From Styela clava (Eukaryota), in NCBI RefSeq assembly GCF_964204865.1, contig NC_135250.1, positions 19,096,001 through 19,160,000 on the forward strand: a stretch of DNA of 64,000 nt. Reading direction: 5' to 3'. The translations under genes and the position numbers were made by a program. Position 1 is the stretch's first letter; every line of letters begins with the position of its first letter. This document shows, in pieces, positions 1-29,995 of this stretch. The notes beneath the pieces were generated by a model. That model saw only the letters and a list, made by a program, of their open reading frames with translations. It was not told where the DNA came from and searched no databases.

Positions 1-586
1 ATAAAGATTGTACAAGATGAAACAAAAGCAAAAGACTTCAGACATTGCAAAATGATCATTCATCATTAAATCCCCTTTTTCAGCGTTTTTAGATTATCTA
101 ACCCTGTAATATTTCTCCATTTATATGTTTAAACATGACCCAGTGATCAGAACAACTTGAAGGTCTCCTTCATTTTGCAAACAGTTTTTTTTTATATGTT
201 ATTGTATTTGACGGATCATTTTGCAAACAGTTGTCAGCTGTCAAAGGGGCAAGCTTATAGTCAAATTTAAAATATTGTCTGTCATCCCTGTTTGTAAATT
301 AATTTAAAATGAAAAAGGTTACACTATAAGTGACTATAAGTTCTCAGTACTTAGTGAAAGAATAATAATGTATTTACTGCATTTGTATTTATATATTACA
401 GCCTTAAAACTTTATGAACATCCTGTATATTTTCTTAAATCACTCGTTTGAATAAGTATTGTCACAAAAGAACAGTATATAAACTTAATTTAATGAGCAA
501 AAGTACTTTATGCAAATAAAAAGCTTGAATATTAATAGTTTTTTGTGTTAATTAATTGTGAGCTATTGTTACATATTACTTGTAGA

Positions 587-2385: not shown

Positions 2386-4398
2386 ATGGCTGGTGTGAAG
2401 AGAATAATCATTTTTGGAGCTACTGGCCAAACCGGATCAAGGACTCTGCAGAGAGCCATAAATGAAGGTATGCTATAAAATATACTGATTTTATTCGGAA
2501 TACGTCTGTCAAATTATTTCTAAATTGAAATAAAAATGTGATTTGAAAATCCAATTTCCTCCTAATTTAAAATACAGAAAACTTGTTTTGAAAATGGATA
2601 TAAAACATGCTTTTCACCCGAAAAAAATCACTTATATAGAACAAATGGCATTATATATATTGTTATAGTAGGTCATAGTATTAGTAATACCAATTGTGCC
2701 TCAATTTCTCATAATGCTAGATATCCATAGTGATAAAAAAATATTTGTTCAGGTCTACAAGTGTCAGCATATGTACGAACACCTTCGAAGATATCTGAAG
2801 ATGTGAAGAAAAATCTCTACAAAGTTATACAAGGCGATGTTCTCGATAAAAGCTCAGTTGAAAAAGCAATTGAAGGAAATGATGCTGTTATTTCTGCACT
2901 TGGTGCAACTTCTCCTTTTGGTGAGTTTATAATCATGTCCCTAATATTGAGTGGTTTCCCATTTAAAAAACATCTTTGATATATCACACCAACAGAAGCA
3001 AAAAAAATTGCACATGGTTTGAAATTCACAAGCATATTTGTAAACAATGCACTGGTATTTTCAGCGAAAACTACAGTCATGTCAGAAGGTTGCTCAAACA
3101 TCATCTCAGGAATGAAGAAACATAATGTCAGGAAATTGATAGTTGTCAGTGGAGGTACGGAGATTAGTTATCAATTATTAACTACGGTACCTAAATTAAA
3201 ACTGTACCCATGCAAAGCAAATACAAAATTAATCAATGCCCAGGAATTGATATGTGATATGAAAAATTGAAAGATTCTTCAAATTACAGTTTTACAGTAT
3301 GAAATAGAGGTGAAATATAACCTAACAAAATATATACAGGGTGTTCAATGTTCATAAAGTCCTATTACAATTTCAAAATTTGTTATGAAGTCAGTTCAAT
3401 TTATCTCAACAAGGTTTGTTTTAGTTTACTCAGTGTTTATTCAGGTATTTTTTTTAGGTTTTTTCATTTGATACACTCTCTTATGTCCACCATTAGATAG
3501 ACGAAGCACATCGAAGTTCTTTTACCTACTTTAATTTAGGACTTATCAATGAATACCCTGTATATTCAGGATAATAAAAATCGTCAAAGCATTAATCATA
3601 ATCAAAAAAACTGTCAAAAAAAACAAACAATCAATTTATGACCATTTTATTAGCAATATACTTGGCAAGTGAAGCTGGAATATTCGCGACACTGATGAAG
3701 ACACTTGTCAAATCAACAGAAGACCATGTAAAGCAACTAAGTATATTGGAAAATGCATCCAGCAATATAGATTGGATAGCAGTCATGCCACCTTGGATCA
3801 AAGATGACAAAGAAGTCAATCCAAATTACCTGGTAAGCACCAGTACTACACCTCACCTATTCATAGTTAAATTCTGATAAATTGAAACTATGTTTATTGT
3901 TTTGTTCACATTTGAGAATTTGCTCAAAGCACGAATACTTGATAGGAAAAGATTATGTTATTAGGAACAATTTTAATTCATCAAATTCAAATCCAAAGCA
4001 ATTTTCATTGCTCAAAGTAGAGCATTTTTTATAATAGGCCTACAATTTCCAATAGTAATATATCGTTATATAAACAGCAGTTTTGGTGTATTATTTCAAG
4101 CTGGAATTATTTTTTCAGTCCTATTAAAAGTGAAACGATGCAGTAATACAAACAATAATATTTTCATTACCTTTTACAGTACAAAAAAGATTATCTGCCA
4201 GGCGTATCCCAAGTTACTACGGCAGAGATAGCAGATTTTATGATCAAAACATTAATGGATGACGATAAAGTTGAATCACTGAAGCATTCTCAAATTGCAA
4301 TATCGTCAAAACCAAAACAACCGTCAAACTGCCCTGGAACTATAGGAATGGCATTACTTGTTTTGGCAGTCGGTTCAGCCATATATTTCAAATATTGA
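2386..4398 (+). CDS. BLVRB: BLVRB / flavin reductase (NADPH)-like paralog 1, 245 aa, C-terminal transmembrane tail
   Basis: Exons 2386-2467, 2753-2920, 3065-3154, 3654-3832, 4180-4398, all GT-AG and in frame. MAGVKRIIIFGATGQTG Rossmann motif, VRTP, GDVL, DAVISALG, TTVMSEG, EDH, AVMPP, DFM match human BLVRB motifs; ends TIGMALLVLAVGSAIYFKY*. Confidence 0.9.
3337..3560. mobile_element. Tc1/mariner-type MITE
   Basis: Ends CAGGGTGTTCA... and ...TGAATACCCTG flanked by TA on both sides; related sequence at ~13808, ~19025, ~21030 and 23832-24043. Confidence 0.7.
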
Positions 4399-5319: not shown

Positions 5320-7721
5320 AAGATATGAAAATACCGCAAAAATTTGTATCTATCTTTTATACCACTATTGCCATGTTTTACTTTTATAATCGATAAGACC
5401 GTAAGTGATTATTGAATATTTAAAAGTTGACTAAATAAAATATGTGTTAACGCAATATTTTCGAGTTTTCGATTCGCGTAAATAAATATGTAACATGCGC
5501 AGGATCAACCCAAGCGGAAATCTCATCAATGAGTTAATTGTTAATTAATTGAGTTAATTATGTACAATCTTTTCTCTAAAAAGGGAGCAATGGAAAGCAT
5601 GGAGCGTTTTAGAACGTTTACATGAACTACTAAAATGCAAGCATTGTATTGACAACGAGTGGCATCTCTCTACCATTTGCGCAGGTGACATTTACAGTAG
5701 ATTTATGGCTAGAAATATCTGGAATTATGGGAAAGCATTGTGGTCAAAAGCTTTTTATTTTTCATATTGACATTTTTTATTGACAGAATTTCTAAAATAG
5801 CCATCCAGAATTGACTCAAGGTGGTGGGCTGGAAATCCAGTTCACAGCTAAGGCGCACATTGACCTACGTTTACGTTTGTGTTATGGCCGCCAAAAAGAG
5901 GAAAATATATTTTTAAATTGATTCAACAGCTATTTGCGGAACCATTAGGCAAAAAATATAAGCTATGACGTATGTTTGTGAGTGCGCGATGCTGTAGTAT
6001 GGTCAAAAACATGTTTTTCTACTTTTACATTGTGATGTCACGGACTCGGAGGACTCGATTCGAATCCTTGACCTATTACTCGGATTCGTCGAATCTCTGT
6101 AATGCCGGACTCGTCCCATCCCTATTAAATACAAAACATCATAGTTATCATTGTTTCTAGCTTGGTTCATTATTATTACTATATAATGTCTAATGTCAAA
6201 CGAATCATTGTCTTTGGGGCATCTGGTCAAACAGGATTAAAGATTCTGAAGACAGCATTAGAGGAAGGTAATTAATTATTGAAATATATAAAATAACACT
6301 CATATCACAAAATGTCTTACAACTGCAAACTTGTGTGAAAAAAAATTAGAAGAACTGATGTAGTGGATTTAGAAGTTTGTTCCCAAACTGTTCAATCAAC
6401 TGAATCAAATTGCACCATATCAGGGTTCTCGAACTTTCAAAATCCACGACCCCGTTGCAGGAACTCTTTGACAACTTGCTTTTGTACAAAAATACCCAGT
6501 TTTGCTTTTAACGCGCTTCCTTCAGTTATTTATTCGACACGTTTTTATAATGAGAAGCCAAAATACAAAATTAAAATAATAAATGCATTACAGAGTACAC
6601 TACAGACAGTCAAAACTCTGATCAATAGATAGTCAAATTACTTTGATTGTCATCATGAATTAAATATCTAGTCTTCATAGAACCGCTCTGTGCACCTATG
6701 GGGGCCAAGGATCAAGTTTGGAAATCGCTGTGCTGGACAAAACATACTAAGGTGATATCACTAAATTTTCAAATTTACAGGTCTTGGAGTCACAGCTTAT
6801 GTTCGCACTCCTTCCAAGATATCAGAAAATATCAGAAACAGACTTTATAAAGTAGTGAAAGGAGAAGTGAAGGATAAAGAAATTATTGAGGATGCAATTC
6901 AAGGGCATGATGCTGTATTATCTGCGCTTGGCGGTAAAAAATTTATGTAACATTATGTGAAGCAAAAAGGTTAGGAAATTGGCTTGCATGGAAGGCATGG
7001 ACAACTAGGTGGGAGTGAATAAGAATACCCCCATATTTAAATAGTACAGTATTCTATACTCCTGCTTCACTATCAAATTTGAATTATTTAATAGTATTTG
7101 GCAAAATCACTTCAAAAAAACTTGGTTTGAACCATAAATAAATGAAATACAATTGAAATTTATAATATTACATAATATAGAATTGATATATAATGTCCGA
7201 AATATATTTTCTGTACTTCCATAACTTAAGCATTATTAAATTTCAAATTGATTGTCAATCAAGTCAAAAATAGACCAGATTAACTTATATATATTCAAAG
7301 CAATGACTTTTCCATTTTAACCTTTTTTTACTTAGCAGTTAGCACTACTTTTTTAAACCAGAGGACAATAAAAAATAGATCGGATATCAGATATTGACAA
7401 TATAAAGAAATACACTCTTCAGATGAATTTTATTTTTGCTATTAAATGTATTGTAGGAACTAGCCGCAACATAATTTCAACTGGGATTGCAAATATAATT
7501 GGTGGAATGAAGAAACACAATGTGCGAAATTTGATTGTCGTCAGTGGAGGTTTGTGATACTCTTGCATATTGAAATTAATTACTGAAGTGAACCAGTTTT
7601 TCATAGCAGATACAAATGAAATTTCAATTGGAAAATATACTAATAGACACTGTTGTATTAACTTTTATTTAATAAAATAAGTAAAATTTGTCATATATCG
7701 TCATTTTGATATAAAAGTGAT
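5320..7721 (+). repeat. Segmental duplicate, copy A (upstream region to intron 3 of paralog 2)
   Basis: Near-identical exons, introns and upstream sequence with 8863-10956, interrupted by copy-specific inserts (~5430-6125, ~6450-6745). Confidence 0.9.
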
Positions 7722-8426
7722 TACCGTACTTGATATTACTCAAATGGAAATTTATTTCAAGTCAAAGTAGTAGAAAAACAAACTTTACAGATCTCTTTCA
7801 ACTGACACTATTAAATATTTAAACCAGCAATTCTACTTCCAAGTGAAGCCGGTATCCTATCAACATTGGTGAAAACATTTGTCAAAGCTACAGATGATCA
7901 TATCAAACAAATTGAGATTTTGGAAAATTCTTCTGTAGATATAGATTGGGTTGCAATAATGCCCCCTTGGATTAAGGATAATGATGACGTAAACCCAAAT
8001 TATCAGGTGAGATGTTGATGATGAATTAATTTTCTATTATTCTACAATATATTTATGTGCTCTTTGCTCTGAATAAGCTCCTGCACAGGCAGCCGCGACC
8101 AGATGTATGTTCAGAAAATCTTTCTGGTTTGGCCTTGCCTCCCCAATTAAATAAACCCTGGGTGAGGTGGTTGGTTTGCATGGGAATTGAACGCAAGATT
8201 TTAACCTGCAATGACATGCTTTAACCACTTTTCAACTATCTTTTAACCTTAAACCAGAACTTTAACGTTGTATTTTATTTCACAGTATGCAAAGGATAAA
8301 GTACCTGGGGTATCACGAGTAACAACAGCTGAAATTGCAGACTTCATGATTCATTTGGTAATGAACAAAGCAAAAGCTGAATCCTTTAAACATTGCAAAG
8401 TTGGAATATCCTCAAAATCAAAATGA
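6186..8426 (+). CDS. BLVRB: BLVRB-like paralog 2, 215 aa, no membrane anchor, mosaic gene
   Basis: Exons 6186-6267, 6781-6933, 7457-7549, 7828-8006, 8286-8426; GASGQTG, VRTP, DDH, AIMPPW; ends KVGISSKSK*. Confidence 0.85.
8060..8232 (-). mobile_element. SINE-like repeat fragment (family 2)
   Basis: Shares the core CCACCTCACC(CAGGGTTT) with 58490-58600 (+) and 55730-55807 (-); the 55.8 kb copy has an A-box-like TGGCCTAGTG and a degenerate B box. Confidence 0.45.
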
Positions 8427-8862: not shown

Positions 8863-10956
8863 AAGATATGAAAATACCACAAAAATTTGTATCTATCTTT
8901 TATACCACTATTGCCATATTTTACTTTTATAATCAATAAGACCATAAGTGATTATTGAATATTTAAGAGTTGAAACTATCCTTTGTTTTATTTACTGTTT
9001 GCAGAACTAAATAGCCTATTTCCTCAAACCAGATAAATATAGAATATCGTAGTTATCATTGTTTCTAGCTTGGTTCATTATTATTACTTTATAATGTCTG
9101 ATGTCAAACGAATCATTGTCTTTGGGGCAACTGGTCAAACAGGATTAAAGATTCTGAAGATAGCATTAGAGGAAGGTAACTAATTATTGAAATATATAAA
9201 ATAACACTCATATCACAAAATGTGTAAAACTGATGTAGTGGATTTAGAAGTTTGTTCCCAAACTGTTCAATCAACTGAATCAATATGCACCATATCAGTG
9301 GTTCTCGAACTTTCGAAATCCACATGCGGCCCACTAGATACTTCTGTGCGGCCCGCGGGTGATTTGGAAACACGCCACTTCTCGGGTCTAACAATCAAAG
9401 CCGGCATTGTTAAGCAAGCGCGCCGCTAATCCCATCATATTGAAAATCGTGAGATTTATGTTTTGTATTAGTTTCAATAAATATCGGCCTTTGTGTGAAA
9501 TTGGTGTGCCCTTCGCGACCCTTAAAATTCGTCACTCGACCTCTCGCCCCCCAGTTTGGGAAACCCTGATTTAGATATCTCAGTATTCAAACTGAATCAC
9601 GATTAAAACAATATCGGTATACAATCTCACACCCATTAGAGCATATTAGCAACCTATTAATAACGCCACTATTTTTTATTAGCAGTTTATGAAACTGAAG
9701 TTTCTTTTTTGATTCAAATTTAGAACTAAAAAAATAATTACTTCGTTTATGAATGATGCAGAAATTCTCGCACAAAAAAATATTGCTATTCACTGAAAGT
9801 GTTTCGTTAAATTTAACTGTTTCACAATATTATTTTGATTTTTAGTTCATCTTGTGAAATATATATGAGGCAAAGTTTGTCGCCTGCCGGCCTTCAGATT
9901 TATGCTTGTGGCCCTCGTGGTAATTTGAGTTGTGCAGGCCTGTACTAAGGTGACGTGATACCACTAAATTTTCAAATTTACAGGTCTTGAAGTCACAGCT
10001 TTTGTTCGCACTCCTTCCAAGATACCAGAAAATATCAGAAACAGACTTTATAAAGTGGTGAAAGGAGAAGTGAAGGATAAAGAAATCATTGAGGATGCAA
10101 TTCAAGGGCATGATGCTGTATTATCTGCGCTTGGCGGAAAATTAAAAATAGGTAGGTAAAAAATTTAAAAAAAGCATTATGTGAAGCACAAAGATTAAGA
10201 AATTGGCCTGCATGGGAGGCATGGACAACTAGGTGGGAGTGAATAAGAATACCCCCATATTTAAATAGTACAGTATTCTATACTCCTGCTTCACTATTAA
10301 ATTCAAATTATTTAATAGTATTTGGCAAAATCACTTTAAATAAACTAGGTTTGAACCATAAATAAATGAAATACAATTGAAATTTATAATATTACATAAT
10401 ATAGAATTAATATATAATGTCAGAAATATATTTTCTGTACTTCCATAACTTGAGCATTAGTAAATTTCAAATTGATTGTCAATTTGAGTTTTTAAATCAC
10501 CGTTGTCAAAAATAGACCAGATTAACTTATATATATTCAATGCAATGACTTTTCCATTTTAACCTCTTTTTACTTAGCAGTTAGCATTACTTTTTTTAAA
10601 CCAGTGGACAATAAAAAAATAGATTGGATATCAGATATTGACAATATAAAGAAGACACTCTTCAGATGAATGTTTATTTTTGCTATTAAATGTATTGTAG
10701 GAACTAGCGACAAGATAATGTCAACTGGGGTTGCAAATATAATTGGTGGAATGAAGAAACACAACGTGCGAAATTTGATTGTTGTCAGTGGAGGTTTGTG
10801 ATACTCTTGCATATTGAAATTAATTACTGAAGTAAACCAGTATTTCATAGCAGATACAAATGAAATTTCAATTGGAAAATATACTAATAGACACTGTTAT
10901 ATTATCTTTTAATTAATAAAATTTGTCATATATCCTCATTTTGATATAAAAGTGAT
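8863..10956 (+). repeat. Segmental duplicate, copy B (upstream region to intron 3 of paralog 3)
   Basis: Near-identical to 5320-7721; homology ends abruptly at AAAAGTGAT in intron 3. Confidence 0.9.
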
Positions 10957-12087
10957 ATACTAATAGACACTGTTGTATTAATTTTTAATTAGTGAGCGGT
11001 TTGAGTTTATTTGCACATTAAGATAGTCATTAATTGAACCAGTTGAGTAAATTGACTAAACAAATTAAATTATCGAAATTTCATTTTGTCCATATAATGT
11101 AATATTACAAATACCTCTTTGTAATAATAAGTGTCTTTCATATATCTTCTAAGGTTTAGCAATTAAGAAGGTATATTCACAGTAATGTTTTTTTTCTACT
11201 GCAACGATTCACAGCAACAATGTCCAAAGCGAATCGGATATCCAAATACACATACTTTAGCTTGTGAATATTTAAAAATAAATCAAAACAATGTTTTTTC
11301 TCAACTATTCTGATTGTTAATCCAGGATTGCAGTTACCATCCCACGCTATACCCAAATTTTTTTTGAGTTTCTTCGTCGGTGAACTAGCTGATCACTCTG
11401 CAGTGATTAAGCTATTAGAAAACGCATCAGATGACATTGACTGGACAGCAGTGGCTCCTCCTTTTATTAAAGATAGCGATGAAATTGAACCTGATTACAT
11501 GGTAAAATATTGTTCACTAACATAACATGTTGCATCGTTGGAAACATTTTATTTAATTGCTAAATGAAAGAATTTTACAATTTTTTTTAGTATTATTAAT
11601 TACCCTTTGCATTTACTTTTATCTTGTTAATTTTCAGAAGACGTGTGTTTATATTAGTTCTAAATAATTGTAAACCATTAATCTGAATTGAAGCATCCAA
11701 TGACAATGTAATTAAATATTACAAAGCAGACAAAGTCTGTTTATTAGGGACATTGAATATGTAATTTTTTACATTATTTAGAGAAGAAGACAGTCCATAT
11801 ATAAGATCTTATGATCAAGTTGATAAAAAATATTGCCTTCCTAAAAATTTTCTGAAAGAAGTCTTGTTTCACAGGTTGCAATAAATGCTATGCCTGGGGT
11901 TTCCAATGTAACTTCTGCTGAGATTGCTGACTTCATGATCAAAATCATAACAGACAAAAATAAGCAGGAAACATACAAGCATGCGAAAGTTGGAATTTCA
12001 TCTCGAGCTTCAACTAGTTTTAAAGCACCGATTGCTATATTGCTCCTTGCTTTGGCTGCTGGTTCCATCATGTATTACACACAATGA
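9094..12087 (+). CDS. BLVRB: BLVRB-like paralog 3, 243 aa, C-terminal transmembrane tail
   Basis: Exons 9094-9175, 9984-10151, 10701-10793, 11326-11501, 11875-12087; GATGQTG, VRTP, ADH, AVAPPF; ends FKAPIAILLLALAAGSIMYYTQ*; AATAAA at 12131. Confidence 0.9.
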
Positions 12088-13002
12088 AGGTTTTAGATGA
12101 TTCAGTAGTGTTCAAGATTCAATTTGGTACAATAAACTCTTTATTACACAACTGACATTACATACATGATACATGTCAATCATTTTGTGTTTCAATCTTC
12201 AATCATTAAGGTGTAAAAGCATTCAATATTTTAATCTAACATTTCTAATCTTTGAATTACTAATTGGAAAGCTTCTTATTTCATTAGAGTACAATCTTGT
12301 ACAAAACTTCTTTCTCTCTATACAGAATGTTTAACAATTAAATGAAGCAATATTTTTTGAATTATTATTTTGACAATAACAAAGAAACCGTTTACGATAC
12401 TAAATCTTTACAATAATTACCGTAGTAATTTTCATTCCCTAATCTGGTTTTAAAGAAAAGTTTAATATTGAAAAATCCACTATTGTCTAAATATGAAAAT
12501 AAATAAATAAAACCCAATTTTGTGATCGTTAATGTACTTTTTTATGCTTTTTATAATTCATAAACATGTAGGCATAGAAAGATAAAATGAATTTATTGAT
12601 TCATACCACAGCATTTATGATAAATACAACATGTAAAGTATCCAATGATATTTTAGTTACCATATGTTTAACACAATTCGGTTAATTTTTGCGGCGTAAG
12701 TTACTTGTTATAAATGAATACTTTTTCCCTTCATAATTTCATGATCATGATCCATTTATTAAGCAATTATAAAAAGTAATTGTACTACATAAAAATAGGG
12801 TATTTTCCACTTTTCACAATAAAATAAAACTTGTTTATACCTTTATTTCCAACATACTGCTTTCAGTAATAATAATAACAATCAACAAGGAATAAATAAA
12901 GCAGAGACAACCCCCAACATCAGTTAATAATTGATCTCGAGCTCATATGAAGGCAGTTTAATAGGCGAAGAATAGAACTCAAGTAAACCTAAGAAGCGGG
13001 AA

Positions 13003-13110: not shown

Positions 13111-15820
13111 ATGTCTGAAATTAATAGTATCATTGTTTTTGGTCCAACTGGAACTACTGGATTACATATATTGAAAAGGGCAATACTTGAAGGTTAGTAT
13201 TTCATACACAAATTCTTTGCAAAATATTTAATTAAGCCACCTTTGGCTTTGTATGAATATAACTTGTTATATTTATTTAAAAAGCACTGTACATACGGCT
13301 CATAATTTACAATCATTAAGCAAATAACATATTTACATTTTTAATATAATATTTGCTAATGGCATAGTGGTATAGCCTTATGGAAATATGTGGGATTCGT
13401 AGTGTGTGTGCATGTGTCAGAGCTGTGCTCTGAATGCTGGAATGGCAAACAAGTTTACCCAGAGTGCAAGCGTTGTGTCTATATCGTTGTGTCTATATCA
13501 TCTTTTATTATTTCTACAGGATTGGAAGTGACAGTATATGTACGTAATCCAAAAAAAATACCAGAAAGCATATGTGCAAAACTATACAGAATTATACAAG
13601 GAGATGTGTTGGATAAAACGAGGGTTGAGAATGCAATCGAAGGACATGATGCCGTACTGTCTGCACTCGGCCAAGGAGGGAATAACCGTGCGTTAAAAAG
13701 CAGTGTTAAAATAAAGAACAAAAATACCTTGTATTAGAGAAAATAAATTAAATACTGAAGTTGTGCAACTCAATGTACAGTATGTAGATACATATTAAAA
13801 AATATGCACAGATTGTTCATGAAGTCCCGTTACAATTTCAATATGAAATCAGTTCTCAATATATCTTAACCAGATTTGTTCATTTCAATGAGTGATTATT
13901 TAGTTTTTTAATACATTTAATATACCTGTAGGGGCCCAGCAAACTATGGTATCAATAATTCCCCTTTTTTGGGAATTAAAAAAAAAATTTATGAGTTTAC
14001 AAACATCCATGTATTTAAATTGTTTATTTATTTGAGTTGCAAGGCACCGAATATACTGTTATAATTGTGACTAAAAAGGCTATTTTTTGACAATGATAAT
14101 TATGGTTGCCAAATATTGTTTAAAGTACACCATGAAATAAATGGTATGTACACCATTCTATCAAAATAAACGATAGTAGATTATGGCCATTGTACAATAG
14201 AATTTAGGTAATGCAGGATAAATAGGAATCTTAATTGTTAATTACAATGACAATTAATTCCAGGTGACAATAGACTACTGTCGGAAGGTTGTCAAAATAT
14301 TGTGTCGGGAATGAAAAAGCACAATGTAACGAAACTGGTCATTGTTAGCATGGGTAAGCTTTTGTGTATGGTAATCATAAGCTTCAAAGGTACATAGCAT
14401 CACTTGTTCAAAAGCACTAATAGGTATTGATAATCAAAAATGCTCGCACCTATTTATAATTAATTTGCAATTTTTAATAAGAAATGGACAACTTTCTCCT
14501 CATCTTCAAAAATACAGTTTATTCGAAAATATTACAATGGGTACAAAACATTATCCATTCTTATTTTTTTAAACATTACCTCTATTGTCCCAATTCCGTA
14601 AAACTGCATTTGGGCTGATATTCCATGGCTGGGGTCATATAAAAAATCAATGGCTATGGAGCCAGTGGCCAGAACCGATAAAAAAAATGTTGAAACCATT
14701 GTGATTTCAAACCAGTTCCTCAGTCTTGGCCAGTACAATACAATAAACATTGTATAAAAACTGATGATGTCTTTATTAAAGGGACATTTCTTACGAGAGA
14801 AAGACCCAGATTCAACAGGTTTTGGAAAAGGAACGGATTTTATGATGATCATCAAAGACAAATCAAAATACTGGAAGAAGAAAGAGAATCGATTGATTGG
14901 ATCATGATGATGCCTTCGAATATAAAGAACAGTACAAATATCAACCCCGACTATAAGGTGATTGGGTTTTACTTAAAAGCAGGTAACTGTCTCTTACTGG
15001 GCAAGATTAGTACCCACACCGGCAACTCCACTAGGAAAGATAATGATGATCAACGAAAAAAATCCATATATTCTCAGTAGTTTCTCTTGCATTCATACTT
15101 GCTAATATTCTAGCATCTACAGCTCAATTGTCATGTCATATGCAGCAAAATACTGTACAATGTAGGATAAATGTTGGATTTTCAATATTCAAAAATGTTG
15201 ATTCATGAATAAATAACAGTTAACTAGGACATCATTGTCATTTTAACGATGGTTTCAACTTAATGTGATAAAATTTTAATGGTGCAAACGATGGGACATA
15301 CTGCTTAAGACACGATTTTCTTGATAATAGCACTTATTCCGTTATAGTGGAGCCTTCATCAAGCTAGGATGAGAAAGCTTAAATGAAGTTTAGAAAGATC
15401 TATTTTGTTGACAGTTGCCCTTTTTGCAAGCATTTTTAATTTTTGCAGGGGGATAAGATTTTAATTCAAAATTATACACATAATTTTGCTCCCTTTCCCC
15501 ATTTCTTACAAAGTTTTACCTTTTAGGTGGAAAAAAATAATATTCCTGGTGGATATTCCGTTACTGCTGGAGAACTTGCAGATTTCATGGTAAAGGTATT
15601 CATGGATAGAACATCAACGGAATGCTTCAAGCATACCAAGTTAGGGATATCTTCTTATCCAAAGAGGAAATTTTCATGCAAAATCAGTATGTCAGTTGCA
15701 ATGGGTCTATTTGCTTTTGCTATTGGAGCAATGCTGTATTATAGAATGCTACCTGATGTATTGCAAGAATTTGTTGACAATGTCACCAACCATGGCACAG
15801 ATGCTATTAAAGATCAGTAA
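13111..15820 (+). CDS. BLVRB: BLVRB-like paralog 4, 269 aa, transmembrane helix plus C-terminal extension
   Basis: Exons 13111-13192, 13520-13687, 14264-14353, 14782-14957, 15527-15820; GPTGTTG, VRNP, GDVL, DDH, MMMPSN; tail ISMSVAMGLFAFAIGAMLYYRMLPDVLQEFVDNVTNHGTDAIKDQ*. Confidence 0.88.
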
Positions 15821-16698: not shown

Positions 16699-17520
16699 TG
16701 TGCCTTTCTGAAAGACAGTAGCCAAATTCAGAAAGTTGGATGCTCTAGAATTCTGTCCCATGATGTATTTTGTGTCTATAAATTTTATTAGATCAATTAT
16801 ATAAATGGCTCATAAATATAATTGTAATTGAGTTTCCATGAAACAAACTACTTATCCCCATTCTATGATTTGTTGCTGGTGGATTAGTATGCATAAAATA
16901 ACTTTCGACTTCCATTTTTCGTATGTGTGACGAAGTCAAGACTTTTGGCCAGATGCAAATACATTTGTGCTAGAGTGCAGAAAGCCAGAAAGACTCAGAG
17001 AACCCATGTATGCCAAACTATATTAGGTGGGAATTAAAAGAAGCTTTGATTTCACTGTGAAAACTTTATATAAATCTTTGAAGAATATATATCCTTTTCA
17101 AAAATTTTAAATGTAAATAAAACCAAATATGCTACAAATCCCTAGTCGTTTCAGACCTATCTCTGTTTTACTTACAGCGTGACAGTCAACAAAGATTTTA
17201 TTGTGCGACAAATTAATGATCAACTTGCAACAAAGCATTTATCTTCAACTGGAATAGCACAAATACTGTACCACACAGTTTAATAATGAAGAAACTTTTA
17301 AGAAGTCAGAAATGTCAAGATATCAATGTGATATGGATAAAGTCTGAACAGAGCAAATGAAGTGATTATTTCAATTCAGATATAGAAAATTACAGTAATT
17401 GCATCAATTTTCATGCCACATCAAACATTGGTATCATTGAAGATGGACAAGGAATCCCTGCTATAAAGTCACAGGGTCAAAATTCAATATGATTGCCGAT
17501 CAAGCCAAGAATGCAGACGA
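16699..17520 (+). pseudogene. Probable decayed C-type lectin remnants upstream of paralog 5
   Basis: CAFLKDSSQIQKVGCSRILSHDVFC (16699-16773, C-x13-C-x9-C), INDQLATK (~17212), VIWIKSEQSK*SDY...NCINF (~17328-17412) and frameshifted RWTRNPCYK (~17441); disrupted by stops. Confidence 0.3.
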
Positions 17521-17721
17521 AGGGTAACTCTAAACCAAAAAATATTTATAATACAAACGCGTGCCCAGCCAGGTGTAACAGTTTCGCATAATGGTATAGT
17601 ACTTTTATAGTAATTTTATGGAAGGCAACTCAGCTGCTTTTGAGATACCACAACAAAACATTATTGGAAGCTCACAAATGTGATAAGAAATTGTACATGA
17701 CTATAGATTTAAACAAATACA

Positions 17722-19516
17722 ATGTCTGATCAACGCAGTGTTATAATATTTGGTGGTACAGGGCATTCAGGAAAATATATACTGAAGCGAGCTGTGGCTG
17801 AAGGTAGGAGCATAGTAAAATTTTCATGAAGAAAATCACGTACGGTAGATTATTAAACATATCTCTCAATAGATATCCTATTATTAAGAAGATGACCCGA
17901 AAAAGAAACCCATACAATAATATGTTCCAAATGGCCTGCATTTCGTTTTTTGGGTCGCCCCATATTTTATCTAGAGTGGAAAATAATATTTAGGTGTAAA
18001 TGGAATAGTGGCAATATACATGTGTGATACTTTTTGTTTTTCGTTCAGGACACCAAGTAACCGCTTTTGTCAGAACACCCTCAAAAGTGCCAGAGAAGAT
18101 TAAAAAGAATATTCAGATTGTACAAGGAGATGTTTTGAACTCTGAACAAGTGGAAAAAGCAATTAAAGATCAGGATGTAGTTTTGTCAGCACTGGGGAAA
18201 GGACTAAGTCTCGGTAGATAGCATCAGTCAAAATAACTAGCCTATTTCAATCATGCCAAGATATAATATTTATATATGGTACCTCAATCTCACACGTCAC
18301 ACTTATGGTAATCAGGTCATAGACTGTATTTCAACATGGGATTAATTAAGCTGTCTTGTCTCTTTTTTATACCTACCGCAGTTAAATTTAAAAAGCCTAG
18401 ATTATCCACTGTATAATCTATATTCATATTATTAAAGGTCCAACAACGTTAATGTCAGAAGGAGCCAAAAACATAGTGTCTGGTATGAAAAAACATGAAG
18501 TGAAAAATCTCGTCATGATTTGTGGAGGTAACTATGCTATATTTATATAACCGCTTATGATCTATGGCATAAATTCTGAAAAACGTCCACAATCTTAATC
18601 CAAAATATTATGTCATTTATTGCAGCGGGGAGTCTACCAAATCAATCATCACCCTGGCTATTTAGACATATTGGCGAAGACCATAAGAGAGTGGTTGAAA
18701 TTCTTAAACAAGAAAATGAATCGTTAAGATGGGTAACTCTACACCCTCCTTTAATCAGGAGCCTGGGAATCATTAATCCAAATTACCAGGTGTGTTGTTG
18801 TGTTTTCCTTATTAATGCCCAATATACCGGTATTAGGAAGATAACATATAATGAAGTTTATACTTAAAATACAAAAACCGCGATGTGTGCTCATACATAT
18901 ATACTCCAATATTACACAACAGTAAATTACTCAACTTAACTGGTAATATCAGTGTGATTAACTTATTAATAAGTTAAAATGGGCATGGCCTACACCAGGT
19001 TTTGATATGTTTACTTATACATGCTGTTCATAAAGTCCCGTACAATACTAGGTGAAAAAACTTCGATGTCCCCTGTGCATCAAATAGTGGTAAGTGTAAG
19101 TATATAGAAGAAAAAAGGGGGGCTAGTTCACTAAACGCTGTCAAGAACTTTTAGTTAGGGTGGATTACCCATTTTCACATGTCATTATGAACCCCAACCT
19201 GATTACGTCATCCAAAAATTATGATTTGAATAATTTGCGATTCGATTGGTGAATACTTGGACAGCCCTAGAACTAGCATTTCATTAAATATGATTGTTTT
19301 GTCATTTAGTCGATGTAAAACAATCTCTATATATAAAGTTACAAACATTTTTTTTAGATCGAGAAAGATAACAACACAGGAAAATTTTATGTTAATGCTG
19401 GTGAGATTGCAGACTTCATGATGAAATATATCAGTGATGAGGAAACTGTCAAAAAATATCAGAACTGCTTACTAGGAATATCAGCAGGCCCTTCTTCTGT
19501 CTGCTCAATCATATAG
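17722..19516 (+). CDS. BLVRB: BLVRB-like paralog 5, 219 aa, C-terminal CaaX motif (CSII)
   Basis: Exons 17722-17803, 18049-18213, 18438-18527, 18626-18789, 19358-19516; GGTGHSG, VRTP, GDVL, PTTLMSEGAKNIV, EDH, LHPPL; ends GISAGPSSVCSII*. Confidence 0.9.
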
Positions 19517-19940
19517 CTTAAATTATTGAACTATGCCAGTGCTTCAGTGTTCAAGATATAAGTTCAGCATTATTTTTTACAGAAGCCATAACATATTGCA
19601 TTTTATAGTTATATTTATTTATTTGACTACATCAGATTTAAAAAAAAAAATTATTACCTCATTGCTTATCTATCTATTTCCTGCAACATATAAATATTAG
19701 AGTGTGAGCTTACAGTGAAAATCACATTCAATTCACATTATTTATTACAGTATATATGAATTTTATAAGATTTTTTATGAGTTAACAAATTTTGCACTAT
19801 ACAAAGTACTCTAAGTCCTGTCTCTGCATCTAAAATTATGTGTTCTAATATCTATCGTCCACTTTTTCTACTTGCCACTCATGTCACAGTTTTTTAGATT
19901 ACTATTAACCGTACTCGACTGAGAGAACAGTTTTCTATAC

Positions 19941-20805: not shown

Positions 20806-23603
20806 ATGCCTAAGCCTAAGATCATAGTTTTTGGAGCAACTGGAAATACTGGATTTTCCATTCTTGAAAGAGGAATTGAAGAAGGTATGAATGCAATATT
20901 TACCAAACATTAGAAATATATTTTTGAACTAACAAATAATGAGAGGGCCTCTATTAAGCATCTATGGATGCCAATATCCAAATACTTTGGGCATTGTAAA
21001 ACGATTTACTGGACTGTCGAATTATATAAGTACAGGATATATATGTTCATATAATTACAATTTTGCTATGAAGTCCGTTCTCAATATTTTCTGACCAGGT
21101 TTGTTTTATATCAATCAGTGTTAATTTAAGTTTTTTACGTCATGTAGGGGGGAACAAAATTATATATGGAATCAATAAATTCAATAAAAAAAACTATAAA
21201 AAATTGTTAACGACTTTTTGAACATTTTGTAATGAAATCATGATATATTTTATTTTTCCAAGGATGTGAGATCACAGCATATGTGAGAACACCATCTAAG
21301 TTGTCAGACCGGTTGCGCAATAATGTCAGAATAATTCAAGGGGACGTTTTGAAAAGAGAACAAGTCGAAGATGCCATTGAAGGGCATGATGTGGTATTGT
21401 CTGCACTTGGTTCGGGATGGGCACTAGGTATGTAGGATACAAAATATTAAACAAACTTTTTTATTTATATGACGCTTATCATGTCTTAATAATAAAATCA
21501 TGAGCTTTCAGCCAGCTTTACTGTTGACCCATTGCACTACCATAATGAAAATGAAAAGCTTTATCAAAAGTTGTAGCACCAGTGAAAAAAATACAATCAG
21601 AATTCTTACATAAACTTTAATCACTCAGCTAGGAAAATTTCATTAATGCATAGTAACGAGTTTAAATTTCAAAAATCTTAGGCACATATCTGAAAGTGTA
21701 TGTAAGGTAATCATTGATGTAATACGTTCACTTGACAATAATTTTTTTTTTTAAGTTTTTGAATCTAGAACTGGCTGTTTTTTTAAATGATTCGATAGCT
21801 ATGATCACAAATACATATTCAATATTTTTCATTTTATAAATAATTATCATGAATAAGAATGATATTTTGGTGATTGTAATAATTCATATATACCGTATAT
21901 ATATATTCAGGTCCTACTAAAATAATGTCGGAAGGATGTAGAAACATTGTCTCAGGAATGAAAAAACATGGCGTTAAGAAGATCGCAGTAGTGGGAGTAG
22001 GTGAGACGAAGAACTTTATCCCAGTACATTAATAATTATTTCCATTAGGATTTCCAAATCATATAATGATTGATCCATGACCTCTAAACCAGTTAATGTC
22101 CCGGTCTAAATCGGTGTAGTTGGCGACTTGATAACAGAGACGTGGAGTAGTTGAACAAGTTTAATATGGTAGTAAGACTCCAATAATTTCATTATTGTAT
22201 CCTTTCTACACACATTCTTTACAATATAGTATAAGTTACATAGATTTATGTAAATATGCTAATACCAATTTTAAATACCAAAATGCATGGCTGTCCTAAA
22301 CCCATGAGTTGTGTTATTAATTAAGTGTCTTTAGTGTTACCAAAAGAAACGAGAATTTTCAAACCAAGATTTTCTGAAAATCTTCTTCCTGAAATTGTCA
22401 TAAAATCAAATAAGAATGTAGAAAAAAACATTACCGGTAGTTATAAAATTTATTCTATGACAATTGCAACAACAATAAACTGTTTTTTTAGATAACATAA
22501 CCATACCCAGTCTTCTTTCTCGTAGATTCTCATTTGATTTTATGACAATATCCTTTATTTACACAACATAACCATAACATAATCTGAAATAGAGATGAAG
22601 TGCCCCATTTCATCATGCCACATAAAGAAGATATTCCTACCCTAATGGAAAACACATTCTAAATGTTGGTGATTTTTATTCAGCAAGTCTAATACCAGGA
22701 GAATGGAGCCCTATGGTACTGAAATATTTGATTGAAGATCATCAGAAGCAGATTGATATTCTTAATGAAGAAAAGGACACAATTGACTGGGTTGCCATAA
22801 TGCCTCCTTCACTTTGGAGAAGCAATTATATCAGTCCATCATACACGGTCAGTATAGTTCATTAAGAACTCGTTGACGATAAACTTGAACCATTTGAAAA
22901 ATTAAAAGTATAACCACTTGAAACTAAATTTGAGAACTAATCAAGATAATCTCAATATTTCTTCCTCAAATCAAACCTACTTTTACCCCACAACTCCCAC
23001 AAGAAAATCATGTCACTTTTTTATGATTTTAGGTGTCAATGTCAACACAAACATTGCTTTTGTAGCTTTTCTAACTGATAAAAAAAGATCTACTTTATTT
23101 TTGTGATAGACATTTAGACCAGGGGTGGGCAAATTAGGGCCCGCATGCCGGATCCAGTCAGATCGCACCTCGGGTGAAGTGGTGGGCATAAGGTTATTCA
23201 ATACTTCAACCTGTGACACATATTGAAAAATATTTACTAATAAAATGATGTTTTAACTTTAATAAACAAATGTCTGAAAGCTTCGACTAGAGTTAACATC
23301 AAGAATATCCATTCACATTCCCAGTTACATAAACTCATTTGTCTCTAGATCATAATAAGTTATTTTACATTCAAACAGGTTGAAAAAGATACATTCACTG
23401 GTCGCTACTACGTATCAACAGGAGAGGTTGCGGACTTTATGTTCAAATGTATAAAAGATGACAACATTTGCCAAGAATACAAGCATCGTCTAGTGGGAAT
23501 CTCATCTGGGCCAGCAATTATTTCAACTAAGAACCTGGTTCTGTTGACAATTCTTTCAGCAGCAGCCATCGGATCTTATTTCATGGGATATACACCTTGG
23601 TAA
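20806..23603 (+). CDS. BLVRB: BLVRB-like paralog 6, 240 aa, C-terminal transmembrane tail
   Basis: Exons 20806-20884, 21263-21427, 21911-22000, 22684-22847, 23379-23603; GATGNTG, VRTP, GDVL, PTKIMSEG, EDH, AIMPPS; ends KNLVLLTILSAAAIGSYFMGYTPW*. Confidence 0.9.
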
Positions 23604-24043: not shown

Positions 24044-25104
24044 CAATAAACACTTCCTGAATTTAGGAAGGTATTTTAAATTTTGATTATGGTATGTAAT
24101 TGGCTTAAATCAGTCCTAAAAATATTAGAGCAATCTTATTATACCAATCCAGCATTATAAAAAATCATTAGGTATGTGTTTTTGTCTGCTGCATGAGACT
24201 AATTTTGATTTAGTTATTCAAAAACATTTACTTCAGAACATATTCAATTATCCTGTATTGGTTATCCCTAGATGAATATGACTAATGATAAAATAGCCAC
24301 TTAAGATAATGCTGCATAAGTTGTGTTATAGTGATGAAATTACATATAATGCTGCTGTAAGGATGAAATGATCTATGGCGATCAAGTTGAATAAGATGTG
24401 ATTGTCCATAAAAAAGGGATATTATTAGAAAGACAGCATTGAACAGCAAATAAATGTCAGACACTACGACCTAAAACCCTCAATCTTGCATTGAACGCAC
24501 GCACCGCTTTTCTTTCCACTCAAACTAGGATTTAGTTTGACTGTTAGCACAACATCTTATGCGTAGGAAAGATTCTTTCTATTGTGACCAAGTTGCGTCA
24601 TAAAATTAAATAAACTTTTCTTGCCCCCTAGAAAAAATCGATAAAAATTTTACCATCATGTCGTAATAACATTTTACCTTGGTGTCAACACGACAAATTT
24701 CGATTAATTCATACAACAAACGAATAAATGTTCAATATTTTCAATACAACATTAATCTTAATCTTAGTGGTAAAACATAATTCATAGGAATTTTTCAATT
24801 CCAATGACTCACTCAAATTTATCTTAAGTCTCTCTGGAGATGAGTCGAGTGCGGGTTGAGTCATTTCATTCAGACGACTCGGAGCATCGAGTATGGTACG
24901 CATATCTGGCAATCCGATCATATATGTTCAACTACCACTTGATTCAACAGGGGTGTGATAGCAAGATTCATCCAGTTGGGCATAAGCAGAGACAGCTTTA
25001 AATATTACACTTTAAGGTAAATACCGCATGAGATAAAACAGTCCCACTTTACATTAGTATATCCATGTCAACCTATGTATATTTGTGGTAATAAATTGAC
25101 TCAC

Positions 25105-26950
25105 CAGTACAACAGTCATCTGTTTCAAGGTGTCCATGTTCAAAGGAATATCAAGAAGCTTTGCAAGAAATGTTCCACCACCTAGTTCCCATATGTGGCC
25201 GATCATGTTGCCATGCTAAAAAAAATTGAAATGGGTAAGCAAAAAACAAGTGAATCTAAGTAGGCACCATGAAGATGTAAGTTACGGTAAGAATTCCATA
25301 TTTATTCTGGGAAAAGTCAATACAATGGATTTATCATATGGCAAAGCACAGTCCCTCGTTCGGATACCAGTCCATGTTGGAATGGAAAAAGGTAACCAGA
25401 ATATTTTCAAAATGCATGAGCTGATTTCAGAAAGTAATAAGACTTCTTTTTGGTGATAAAGGGAAATTGATGAATAAAGAGGATAAAACTATATTCTGCA
25501 CATATAAGTGCCAAACGTATGTTTCCAGTTGAATAAATTTTTACAATTACATTAATCAGAACCAAACTAGGATTAAATTTCTCTGTTCAAAAAGACTGCA
25601 TTCAGGAGGGCAGGATATAAAAGAAAAACAAACCATCTGAGTCTTCCGTGCATAGGTGTATTCGAGAGCAACTGAAGGCTTCGTAGGTTCTTCACGATTT
25701 AAAAATCTGAGCAGCGCTGTAGTCTTCCCCTAAAATATAATATTGCAGTCAAATTTTGTAGTTACATTAACATGTTATATATAGCCTACAATTATATTCG
25801 ATAAATTTCATACATAAAATTTACAAATCTGTTATATATTATTCCGGTTGAAAAGAAACATATTAAAATCTTTCTGTGAAATTTAGAATTCCAATATCAC
25901 ACAGATTTCAGTGAAAATACAAAACAAAAAGTCATGTTGAATGTATTATAAGCATTTTGATGAACATTCAGATATGAACTGTCACAAAAGAGACTCAGCT
26001 TTTGTTTTTTGGAAAACAGTTTTCACATAGTTAACATATAAATGGCCGTTCTAGTTGATAGTATCAGTACTTCCGAAATTTTTTCTGGATGAAGTTCCAG
26101 ATTAAACACTTAATGGCTAGAATACAACAACATATTTCAGTCATGACCTGGGTATTTAAGAGTTTGAAAATGAATTGAAGTTATTTTAATATCCTTTACA
26201 GATGGATTCCAGATATTTGGGTAACCCAAACTACATTTCAACCTATGATAAAAGCTATTGGAAAACAAAATGAAACTACTTTTTAATCACTGGAAATTTT
26301 GAAACTTACTGATGATTTTCCACCAATAACAAGAACATATTTGTCAGTTACAATTCCTTTATAAGCTTCGTTTTCTTTCTTGATATTGATTTCATCCACA
26401 GCAGCATCCCAGATTGTTCCACTAAAGATTAAATAACAAATACCTCAAGTTTGAATCTGACATCTTTAATTTCAATATACTGGATTAATTCAGTTTTAAA
26501 ACTAGAAATTTTGATCTCAAATGAAAGTTGAGGTATAGACTCATTTGGTTGGAAAATATATTCGATTATTGATTATACAAGTCCTCAACATTCATACACA
26601 TCCTCAAATTATCTCATTGTACAAATGTTGCCAATGAAAATCATTCATTAGCTTTTGACATGCAATAGATGAATTCAATTAAAGCATCTTAAATATGTGT
26701 GAGTCGTGTGACATCTGATTTGCGTCAAATAACTAATTCCCAACCTATAAAGCCTCGTAAAACTTCACCCTATGTACCAAAAAAATGTAAAATTAAGATA
26801 ACAGGATTTCTTGTTACTCTTCTAAAATTATAGGCCTATTACAGTATATGTTTCCCATTCCTACCCTATGATACAAAGCATAGTAATATCTGCTGCCACC
26901 AAACAACCCTTCCAAACATTGAGAATTAACAAGAGAGTTTATTACCTCAT
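25105..26950 (-). CDS. DYNC2LI1: Cytoplasmic dynein 2 light intermediate chain 1, 5' part only (108 codons found)
   Basis: Exons 26950-26946 (ATG AG), 26421-26310, 25729-25634, 25215-25105 give [10 protein letters not shown]...[38 protein letters not shown]...[32 protein letters not shown], matching the DYNC2LI1 N-terminus. Later exons were not found; the first exon is less certain. Confidence 0.82.
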
Positions 26951-28528: not shown

Positions 28529-29626
28529 TTAAAATATGAAATAAGCTAAGATGAAATAAGGCAAGAGGCAGAAAACATGACCAATCAATGTACTAATTGT
28601 ATAGCATTTTACAGGTTTTAAACCTTGTTTTCCCGGAGGAAATTTGCCTGTAGCAAAAAAGTCCTTCAGAAGTTTATCTTTTTCAATAAACCTATCGTAA
28701 ATCCACGCTTCAGAAACAGAGTAACCTCCTCCTTCTCCAACCTTTGTCATCATATCAGAGGAACGAAAAACACGGTAATGCAGATAAACTTTTTTCGGCC
28801 CTCCGCTACCCATCACCCATGACGTTATTCCTAGAGGCTCATTCTTTGCATATCCAATTGTGACATCGATAATCCATTTGATATGTTTTTTTCCCAGTGA
28901 ATCTTTGTTGAGTCCATTCTTAACCCCCTCAACACCCAGGACATCCACTATTGCTTGAAAAGCCCCCACTCTAGGTATAGTAACATTGTTTAATAAAGGT
29001 AAATTATTACGCTTGGAAAAACGCCAACTTCCCTCTCTTCGTTTATGAAGAAATCCACCTTCGGGAAAAAGAATCATCCATTTTCTATCACGTTTGCAAT
29101 AAACATCAACAAGGTGTTTTTTGAATCGCTTCATTCCATCAATTTTGATTTGTGCTTCAGAACCGCTAAACAAAAATGGAAACTTTCGAATATCCGAACC
29201 TTGGAGAAGGAAGAAGTCACCATGGCCTTTTGCTATCCATCCAAAACTTAAAAATTGTAATACCCAGTCCATAATCCACATGACCCCTCTAAGCGAAGGT
29301 CTTGTACCCCGCAGAGCATGCATCAACACAGGAATATCCCCCGAAGATTGGTGATTTGTCATGAGAATGCTTTCATCATTGATAATGGAAGATATATCAT
29401 CGCCGCTGGTAAATATTTCATGTCCGGATAACTGAGCCCAAAATGCTACCATAGATAGTAGTTTTTCATATAGCCATCCTTCAATAGCCCAGAACGTTAG
29501 TGGAGAGAATATCCTTAATGGTTGTAATAACAAGTACAAACAAAGGTATACCGGAATTGCATATATGTTGTTTACAATGCAAAGTATCACCCGAAGAAGT
29601 GATGTGAATGTTGTAATGAAACTCAT
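28529..29626 (-). CDS. LPGAT1: Acyl-CoA:lysophosphatidylglycerol acyltransferase 1-like, 365 aa, single coding exon
   Basis: Uninterrupted ORF; first ATG at 29626 (the track start 29650 is a TTG upstream of a splice acceptor). NHQSSGD (HxxxxD), HGDFF, RDRKWMILFPEGGFL, WIIDVTIGY and RFIEKD match LPGAT1. Confidence 0.95.
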   Translation of the reverse strand: MSFITTFTSLLRVILCIVNNIYAIPVYLCLYLLLQPLRIFSPLTFWAIEGWLYEKLLSMVAFWAQLSGHEIFTSGDDISSIINDESILMTNHQSSGDIPVLMHALRGTRPSLRGVMWIMDWVLQFLSFGWIAKGHGDFFLLQGSDIRKFPFLFSGSEAQIKIDGMKRFKKHLVDVYCKRDRKWMILFPEGGFLHKRREGSWRFSKRNNLPLLNNVTIPRVGAFQAIVDVLGVEGVKNGLNKDSLGKKHIKWIIDVTIGYAKNEPLGITSWVMGSGGPKKVYLHYRVFRSSDMMTKVGEGGGYSVSEAWIYDRFIEKDKLLKDFFATGKFPPGKQGLKPVKCYTISTLIGHVFCLLPYFILAYFIF

Positions 29627-29995
29627 CTTGAAAGTTAGACTCTGGTACAAAACCTTTTATGTATTTCACTATTGCTTTAGTATTATACAAAACATGTGTT
29701 TAAAATGGAAGTAGGTACAAAGCAAAAAAAAATACGATATTTTAAATTGAAATCATAACAATCTTCATAACTAAAACTGACAGGTAAACTCATATTGATT
29801 TCTTGTCTATCAATCTTTCTTACATATGCAGGTGCAGTGGTGTGGTAGAGTACAAGCCAACAATATTTCAACATTATTAGTTCACAACAGAGCTGCACCG
29901 CGCACTTGACAGAAAAAATTGTCAGCCATTCTCAATTAACAACCCAATAGCAGAACAAGGGAGACAGTACGACAAAATTGAGATATTTATTACTT

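What the first reader, a model, noticed from the sequence alone, without database searches (positions are those of the whole stretch)
19481..19516. Paralog 5 has a CaaX box where paralog 6 has a transmembrane tail
Seen: paralog 5 ends GISAGPSSVCSII*, while paralog 6, which has the same exon 2-4 sizes (165/90/164 nt), ends GISSGPAIISTKNLVLLTILSAAAIGSYFMGYTPW*. Established: a terminal Cys-a-a-X is the prenylation signal, and a large aliphatic X favours geranylgeranylation. Inference: two different anchoring chemistries in apparent sister genes suggests membrane attachment itself is selected. There is no polybasic second signal, which would point to endomembranes.
Basis: partly seen in the sequence, partly recalled or inferred. 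Interest (0 to 1): 0.75.

Follow-up and report, generated by a model that had tools for sequence, protein, structure and literature searches.

The report
Prenyl box carved from membrane tail
A sea-squirt gene for a flavin-reductase-like enzyme ends in a four-residue lipid-attachment signal where four sister genes carry a predicted membrane-spanning tail; the signal likely arose from the broken end of such a tail and is predicted to keep the enzyme on membranes.

Summary
Confirmed. The window holds six of seven tandem BLVRB (flavin reductase)-like genes of Styela clava. Paralog 5 (XP_039273900.2) ends CSII*, spliced contigs support that exon, and eight runs keep the motif. Four sisters end in hydrophobic tails; two have none. 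In published yeast reporters CSII is fully prenylated and cleaved. New here: (1) the codons V-C-S-I-I-stop lie in register with the end of the sisters' membrane helix (V-G-S-A-I-Y), with the old stop codon still downstream, so the box was likely made by deleting the helix core, Gly>Cys and Tyr>stop; (2) the 25-row subfamily has 12 membrane tails and 7 CaaX boxes in three separate lineages (CSII; Clavelina CMIS/CVLQ; unnamed CNIL/CIIL), so membrane attachment looks selected; (3) catalytic Ser111 of BLVRB is absent in 24 of 25 rows, so the substrate probably differs. Not shown: prenylation of the protein itself; no paralog-5 ortholog was found. Geranylgeranyl is not favoured over farnesyl by the data seen. 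Precedent: the ALDH3A1/3A2/3B1 trio. New variant of a known kind; interest 0.5.

The parts
17722..19516 (+). Paralog 5, five coding exons, 219-aa BLVRB/flavin reductase-like protein (XP_039273900.2)
   Evidence: splice joints; fold TM 0.85-0.88 to human BLVRB
19358..19516 (+). Last coding exon of paralog 5
19502..19516 (+). CaaX box Cys-Ser-Ile-Ile and TAG stop
   Evidence: unchanged as protein in 8 of 8 runs and in two RefSeq versions
19517..19529 (+). Likely relic of the old helix end, closing with the likely ancestral TGA stop at 19527-19529
   Evidence: 28 nt before this TGA match paralog 1's last 27 coding nt better than 2794 of 2794 TGA-anchored window stretches
19546..19557 (+). 12-nt 3' UTR word shared with paralog 3 (12107-12118) at a like distance from the stop
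   Evidence: the only two copies in the window, both strands
17511..17523 (+). Alternative first coding exon of RefSeq isoform X2; product lacks the Gly-rich dinucleotide-binding start
20806..23603 (+). Paralog 6, sister lineage, 240 aa, hydrophobic C-terminal tail at 23514-23603
   Evidence: (19-residue Kyte-Doolittle 1.80)
2386..4398 (+). Paralog 1, 245 aa, hydrophobic tail; its last 10 codons (4369-4398) are the best match to the paralog-5 box
6186..8426 (+). Paralog 2, 215 aa, no anchor (ends GISSKSK); mosaic of paralog 3-like and paralog 1-like exons
9094..12087 (+). Paralog 3, 243 aa, hydrophobic tail
   Evidence: P0099
13111..15820 (+). Paralog 4, 269 aa, hydrophobic segment followed by a 26-residue extension
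   Evidence: gene model mine, not checked against transcripts
1..69 (+). End of the last exon of a seventh paralog (p0, 214 aa, no anchor) that starts upstream of the window

Best explanation
Paralog 5 is a BLVRB-fold, predicted NADPH-dependent reductase whose C-terminus is a canonical CaaX box; it is predicted to be prenylated, clipped and methylated, and the lipid likely replaces the membrane helix that its ancestor likely carried. Shown: gene structure, spliced last exon, fold, motif, position in the tree. Inferred origin: an in-frame deletion removed the hydrophobic core of the tail, the Gly of the helix-end motif became Cys and the following Tyr codon became TAG, leaving the old stop 10 nt further on. 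Inferred function: the prenyl group, five residues after the last strand motif (GISA) and with no polybasic or evident palmitoyl second signal, holds the enzyme loosely and reversibly on the cytosolic face of ER/Golgi membranes, whereas the tail-anchored sisters are fixed there; both would bring NADPH reducing power to a lipophilic acceptor (quinone, pigment or lipid-oxidation product) that is probably not biliverdin IX-beta, because Ser111, Arg78 and His153 are replaced. Odds by step: protein is prenylated in vivo 0.85; box arose from the helix end 0.75; kept by selection for membrane attachment 0.65; farnesyl versus geranylgeranyl about even, dual use likely; substrate class 0.35.
For: Motif: CSII observed prenylated and cleaved (PMC9231725 Table 3), 100% modified with Ras-recruitment enrichment 11.35 versus 9.01 for Ras2 CIIS (PMC10320760 Table 3). 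Tail is outside the confident fold (last block pLDDT 65 against 92-99). Three prenyltransferase-beta loci in the genome. Recurrence: of 25 subfamily rows 12 have hydrophobic tails, 7 CaaX, 1 a CCGCNC end, 2 other, 3 none; CaaX rows fall in three places and forcing them together is rejected (AU p 3e-12); Cys -4 is kept while aaX and linker change between proteins 57% (CMIS/CVLQ) and 64-88% (CNIL/CIIL) identical, all predicted prenylated and cleaved by the SVM model. Origin: hydrophobic tails lie on both sides of the Styela root; VCSII* codons match paralog 1 at 13 of 18 and paralog 3 at 11 of 18 bases ungapped; TGA-anchored test 0 of 2794 for paralog 1, 32 of 2794 for paralog 3; local score above all 2970 null windows. 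Human BLVRB, without an anchor, is reported partly on membranes and mainly ER-localised (PMC12532840 passages; PMC13528197 abstract).
Against: No ortholog of paralog 5 was found in any search, so conservation of its Cys outside S. clava is untested. Two of seven sisters, Phallusia P0100 and P0266 (nested in a CaaX clade) have no CaaX or helix, so anchors are lost readily. A helix end is already hydrophobic, so one Gly>Cys change makes a good box by accident. Invariance in the species is weak evidence: two RefSeq versions differ at 9 residues and 1 indel, none in the last 42, chance about 0.12. The local score to paralog 1 (26) only just beats the null maximum (25), the query was chosen after a first look, an out-of-register paralog 1/6 pair scored 25, and the sister paralog 6 matches poorly (17). 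The CaaX group was named after the tree was seen. The in-frame peptide after the stop is not significantly tail-like (p 0.053). Substrate and localisation are untested.
Confidence: 0.6

Rival explanations
1. Accidental CaaX: paralog 5 is one of three Styela copies that lost the tail; the leftover end happens to read CSII and, even if prenylated, is not under selection.
For: p0 and p2 lost the tail with no replacement; the residues come from a hydrophobic helix end; a third of all CXXX words are predicted prenylatable and 15% canonical (PMC9231725); paralog 5 carries many amino-acid polymorphisms; no ortholog found.
Against: Needs a Cys and a stop in exact spacing; two other subfamily lineages keep Cys -4 over 12-43% divergence; CSII scores among strong canonical motifs; Cys -4 in 2 of 308 comparison proteins.
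Confidence: 0.22
2. The CaaX box is ancestral: the early enzyme was prenylated, paralog 5 and Clavelina kept it, and membrane helices arose several times by loss of the stop.
For: Linker after the GISx motif is 5 residues in both paralog 5 and the Clavelina pair; the fewest changes on the tree is 9 and my hand count for a CaaX ancestor is 10; the base of the subfamily is unresolved; paralogs 1 and 4 have a Cys before the helix.
Against: Paralog 5's box aligns with the far end of the helix and the old stop lies downstream, which points to helix-to-CaaX in this lineage; Styela helices share an end motif across both sides of the root.
Confidence: 0.1
3. The protein is prenylated, but the lipid serves a protein partner or carrier rather than the bilayer, and the enzyme stays mostly cytosolic.
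For: No polybasic stretch and no free Cys next to the box (Cys204 lies in the last strand); a single prenyl group is a weak anchor (recalled).
Against: Canonical, cleavable box; the alternative state in relatives is a membrane helix, which points to the bilayer.
Confidence: 0.08

Closest known systems
Human biliverdin IX-beta reductase / flavin reductase (BLVRB; PDB 1HDO, 5OOG, 7ER7)
   Same: Best solved match by sequence (E 1.9e-26) and fold (TM 0.85-0.88, rmsd 1.7-2.0); Thr12, Arg35 and His132 equivalents kept. No separate canonical copy found in the genome (lower bound).
   Different: Human enzyme has no C-terminal anchor; Ser111 is Gly here (Ser in 1 of 25 subfamily rows against 11 of 11 canonical rows), Arg78 is Gly, His153 is Leu; the subfamily is a separate branch (100/99).
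Class 3 aldehyde dehydrogenases ALDH3A1 / ALDH3A2 (FALDH) / ALDH3B1
   Same: One oxidoreductase family with a soluble, a C-terminal-helix and a prenylated member acting on lipid substrates (PMC4109017 passages).
   Different: Unrelated fold; ALDH3B1 also is palmitoylated and at the plasma membrane; lipidation is shown there and only predicted here; here the swap recurs in three lineages and its mutational path is readable in the DNA.
Ykt6 versus helix-anchored R-SNAREs; OAS1 p46 versus p42 (recalled; OAS1 p46 seen only as a reference title)
   Same: CaaX lipid in place of a helix, or added to a soluble enzyme for endomembrane targeting.
   Different: Ykt6 is an ancient split with a second lipid; OAS1 uses alternative splicing. 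No alternative last exon was seen for paralog 5.

Membership tests
CaaX-prenylated proteins | Cys fourth from the true C-terminus of an expressed, spliced frame | tested here: met
   (runs are guessed RNA; GT..AG joints seen)
CaaX-prenylated proteins | aaX accepted by a CaaX prenyltransferase and protease | tested here: met
   literature look-up of the same tetrapeptide on yeast reporters: PMC9231725 Table 3, PMC10320760 Table 3; not the ascidian enzymes
CaaX-prenylated proteins | Cytosolic protein with an accessible tail | tested here: inconclusive
   fold starts at residue 6, so no signal peptide; last block pLDDT 65, drawn as strand then short helix
CaaX-prenylated proteins | Prenyltransferases in the organism | tested here: met
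   PF00432 at three loci; not assigned to FTase, GGTase-I or RabGGTase
CaaX-prenylated proteins | Isoprenoid on the protein itself | not testable with these tools
   needs labelling or mass spectrometry
CaaX-prenylated proteins | Cys -4 conserved in orthologs | tested here: inconclusive
   no paralog-5 ortholog found; conserved within two other lineages
GGTase-I (geranylgeranyl) substrates | X in L/F/I/M/V with branched a2, and modification by GGTase-I in preference to FTase | tested here: inconclusive
   consensus met (PMC10942308); CTII near-complete, a1 Ser weakens; a-factor-CSII mates like wild type; CSII absent from the one supplement file read
Plasma-membrane two-signal CaaX proteins (Ras type) | Polybasic stretch or adjacent palmitoylated Cys | tested here: not met
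   0 K/R in 15 residues upstream; the one Cys there is in the last strand
BLVRB / flavin reductase family (NAD_binding_10) | Single-domain Rossmann fold closest to BLVRB, Gly-rich motif, Arg35 | tested here: met
Biliverdin IX-beta reductase proper | Active-site Ser111 (most critical residue per PMC10215512) and Arg78 clamp | tested here: not met
   Gly112 and Gly79
Biliverdin IX-beta reductase proper | NADPH-dependent reduction of biliverdin IX-beta or flavin | not testable with these tools
   needs an assay
Tail-anchored proteins (paralogs 1, 3, 4, 6) | One hydrophobic segment near the C-terminus after a cytosolic domain | tested here: met
   19-residue Kyte-Doolittle 1.75-1.87 against 0.77-0.96 for p0, p2, p5; paralog 4 has 26 further residues
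Tail-anchored proteins (paralogs 1, 3, 4, 6) | Membrane insertion and target organelle | not testable with these tools
   needs fractionation or imaging

The most novel reading that the evidence does not exclude
Tunicates and their unnamed relatives turned BLVRB into a family of membrane-bound NADPH reductases with a new, Ser111-independent chemistry for lipid-soluble acceptors, and swap the anchor (helix, CaaX, Cys cluster, amphipathic end) again and again; Styela paralog 5 preserves, base by base, the birth of a working prenylation signal from a dismantled membrane helix.
Probability: 0.27. Interest if true: 0.72.

Novelty: new variant of a known kind. Interest (0 to 1): 0.5.

Why it matters
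It would be a traceable case of how a protein gains a prenylation signal (one deletion and two base changes at a helix end), in an array that offers soluble, helix-anchored and lipid-anchored versions of one enzyme for side-by-side tests. Human BLVRB is reported to protect ER and plasma membranes without any anchor; relatives that hard-wire the location support a membrane role and give a route to the unknown lipophilic substrate. The principle (helix versus prenyl among paralogs) is known from ALDH3, which caps the surprise.

Tried and rejected
ESM Atlas gave no answer. No run was on record as RNA; spliced joints, not depth, were used. A simple premature stop with an in-frame decayed helix behind it: p 0.053 over six tails, rejected in favour of the deletion reading. 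Alternative last exon or splice to paralog 6's tail: no such joint in 4 runs laid over the gene, which does not exclude it. One origin for all CaaX boxes: rejected. My first His153 column was off by one and corrected; p0 was over-trimmed in the first tree and restored; first exon picks for p0 and p4 were out of frame and corrected. Fragments P0110, P0112, P0209, P0241, P0270 and near-identical cluster members were left out of the 25 rows (P0252 and P0364 stand for P0209 and P0270). Not in print as far as searched: BLVRB+ascidian 0, biliverdin reductase B+prenylation 0, flavin reductase+Styela clava 1 unrelated, de novo+CaaX motif+transmembrane anchor+evolution+replaced 0, biliverdin reductase+tunicate 1 unrelated; subscription journals are not covered. 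Earlier scan notes: nothing.

Full report
Observation. The window is from Styela clava (named protein match). An exon-2 search of the genome gave seven matches, all in one tandem array (8 of 8 candidates scored, a lower bound); six genes lie in the window and the seventh starts about 2.1 kb upstream. All seven models have five coding exons, GT-AG introns and no internal stop. Paralog 5 is 219 aa and ends CSII*; paralog 6 has the same exon 2-4 sizes and a hydrophobic tail. Paralogs 1, 3, 4 and 6 have 19-residue hydropathy maxima of 1.75-1.87; p0, p2 and p5 have 0.77-0.96. Contigs from runs guessed to be RNA join exons 2-3, 3-4 and 4-5, and all 8 runs laid cover the CSII codons with one synonymous change in one run. 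Contigs collapse alleles and one DNA run may be the assembly source.

Family. The protein is closest to human BLVRB by sequence (E 1.9e-26) and by predicted fold (mean pLDDT 95.8; TM 0.85-0.88). With Phallusia, Clavelina and unnamed records it forms a 25-row branch apart from 11 canonical animal-type BLVRB rows (100/99). A canonical-clade query found only array exons in the genome, so the array may be this species' BLVRB complement; I recall human BLVRB having 79/165/90-nt first exons, like paralog 6, but did not check it. Arg35 is kept in 25 of 25 rows and His132 in 23 of 25, while Ser111 is kept in 1 of 25 (11 of 11 canonical), Arg78 in 2 of 25 (10 of 11) and His153 in 0 of 25 (9 of 11). A review calls Ser111 the most critical residue, with about tenfold loss of biliverdin reductase activity on mutation, and His153 unimportant (PMC10215512, passages). 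I therefore file paralog 5 in the BLVRB family but not as a biliverdin IX-beta reductase.

Is CSII a real signal? The same tetrapeptide was tested on yeast reporters: prenylated by Ydj1 gel shift and cleaved by a-factor mating (PMC9231725, Table 3, passages and supplement rows), 100% modified with Ras-recruitment enrichment 11.35 (PMC10320760, Table 3 passage). The lipid is open. X = Ile fits the GGTase-I consensus (PMC10942308, passages; CSII not in its text or the one supplement file held), and CTII was nearly fully geranylgeranylated by the human enzyme, but Ser at a1 cut modification to about half in the CxIM series (PMC11152559, passages), and wild-type-level mating points to farnesyl in yeast. 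There is no K/R in the 15 residues upstream. Three prenyltransferase-beta loci exist in the genome.

Is attachment selected? No paralog-5 ortholog was found. The subfamily, however, shows the same alternation: 12 hydrophobic tails, 7 CaaX boxes, 1 CCGCNC end, 2 other, 3 none among 25 rows. The boxes are CSII (Styela), CMIS and CVLQ (two Clavelina lepadiformis proteins with consecutive accessions, 57% identical) and CNIL, CNIL, CNIL, CIIL (unnamed records, 64-88% identical, with a linker indel). All are predicted prenylated and cleaved by the SVM model of PMC9231725. Trees built without the tails put them in three places, paralog 5 as sister to the helix-bearing paralog-6 group, and one CaaX clade is rejected (AU p 3.3e-12; group named after seeing the tree). 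A fourth lineage inside the canonical clade ends CSLQ or CGLQ (10-member cluster of P0141). Against: p0, p2, Phallusia P0100 and P0266 have no box or helix; the taxa of the unnamed rows are not known.

Origin of the box. The codons GTC TGC TCA ATC ATA TAG of paralog 5 lie in register with GTC GGT TCA GCC ATA TAT of paralog 1 (13 of 18 bases) and GCT GGT TCC ATC ATG TAT of paralog 3 (11 of 18), the last turn of their membrane helices. The first TGA after the stop (19527) is followed by ACT as in paralogs 1 and 6; the 28 bases before it match paralog 1's last 27 coding bases better than any of 2794 TGA-anchored stretches of the window (paralog 3: 32 of 2794; sum: 0 of 2794), about as well as paralogs 1 and 3 match each other. 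A 12-base word 16 bases after that TGA recurs 19 bases after paralog 3's stop and nowhere else in the window. The simplest reading, inferred: deletion of the helix core between the shared GISxGP motif and the helix end, Gly to Cys, Tyr to stop. Cautions: the local score (26) barely exceeds the null maximum (25 of 2970), the query was picked after a first alignment, an out-of-register pair scored 25 and the sister paralog 6 fits poorly; exchange between paralogs, seen in mosaic paralog 2, could explain that. For the whole subfamily the direction is unresolved (9 changes at least; my hand count for a CaaX ancestor is 10).

Mechanism. Inferred: after prenylation, clipping and methylation the enzyme sits reversibly on endomembranes, five residues from its last strand, while the helix-bearing sisters are fixed; both deliver hydride from NADPH to a lipophilic acceptor. 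Human BLVRB is reported in membrane as well as cytosolic fractions and proposed to protect against lipid peroxidation (PMC12532840, passages) and to engage ligand mainly at the ER (PMC13528197, abstract and outline only). The endomembrane prediction rests on the recalled two-signal rule. Substrate and organelle are untested.

Comparison and verdict. The closest system by logic is ALDH3: cytosolic ALDH3A1, helix-anchored ALDH3A2, palmitoylated and prenylated ALDH3B1 (PMC4109017, passages). So the kind is known. I found nothing in print on anchored or prenylated BLVRB relatives (listings seen as titles and abstract starts). New variant of a known kind; best explanation 0.6; interest 0.5.

Noticed in passing
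window 6186-8426 (paralog 2): Mosaic gene: exons 1-3 are 86-89% identical to paralog 3, exons 4-5 closer to paralog 1 (64-65% against 47-56%); it lacks a tail. Suggests unequal crossing-over in the array.
   Followed up: partly
window 15527-15820 (paralog 4 last exon): The hydrophobic segment is followed by 26 residues that include an N-V-T sequon; glycosylation there would report ER insertion and topology (sequon read by eye).
   Followed up: no
window 17511-17523: RefSeq isoform X2 of paralog 5 starts from an upstream exon and lacks the first strand and Gly-rich motif but keeps the CaaX box; likely cofactor-blind or a model artefact.
   Followed up: partly
proteins P0141, P0253-P0261: A canonical-clade BLVRB cluster (Ser111 kept) with a long tail ending CSLQ or CGLQ: a further, independent CaaX-bearing lineage of unnamed taxon.
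   Followed up: partly
proteins P0103, P0265, P0266: Other tail types in the subfamily: CCGCNC, a Trp-rich end (IPFWKLWSR), and GCSK inside the CNIL/CIIL clade.
   Followed up: no
window 28529-29656, minus strand: Intron-free 375-codon frame with Pfam Acyltransferase and Acyltransf_C matches, a lysophospholipid acyltransferase-like gene beside the array; possibly a retrocopy.
   Followed up: partly
window about 25080-26420, minus strand: Exon read by eye as [11 protein letters not shown]; recalled as resembling dynein-2 light intermediate chain; not tested.
   Followed up: no
window 41421-50298 and 61270-61578, plus strand: Exon-like frames of a protein kinase (recalled as MAP3K12/13-like) and of a sulfotransferase-like gene (recalled label) in the frame list.
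   Followed up: no
window 17722-19516: Two RefSeq versions of paralog 5 differ at 9 residues and one codon indel, both forms also seen in run contigs: a markedly polymorphic enzyme.
   Followed up: partly
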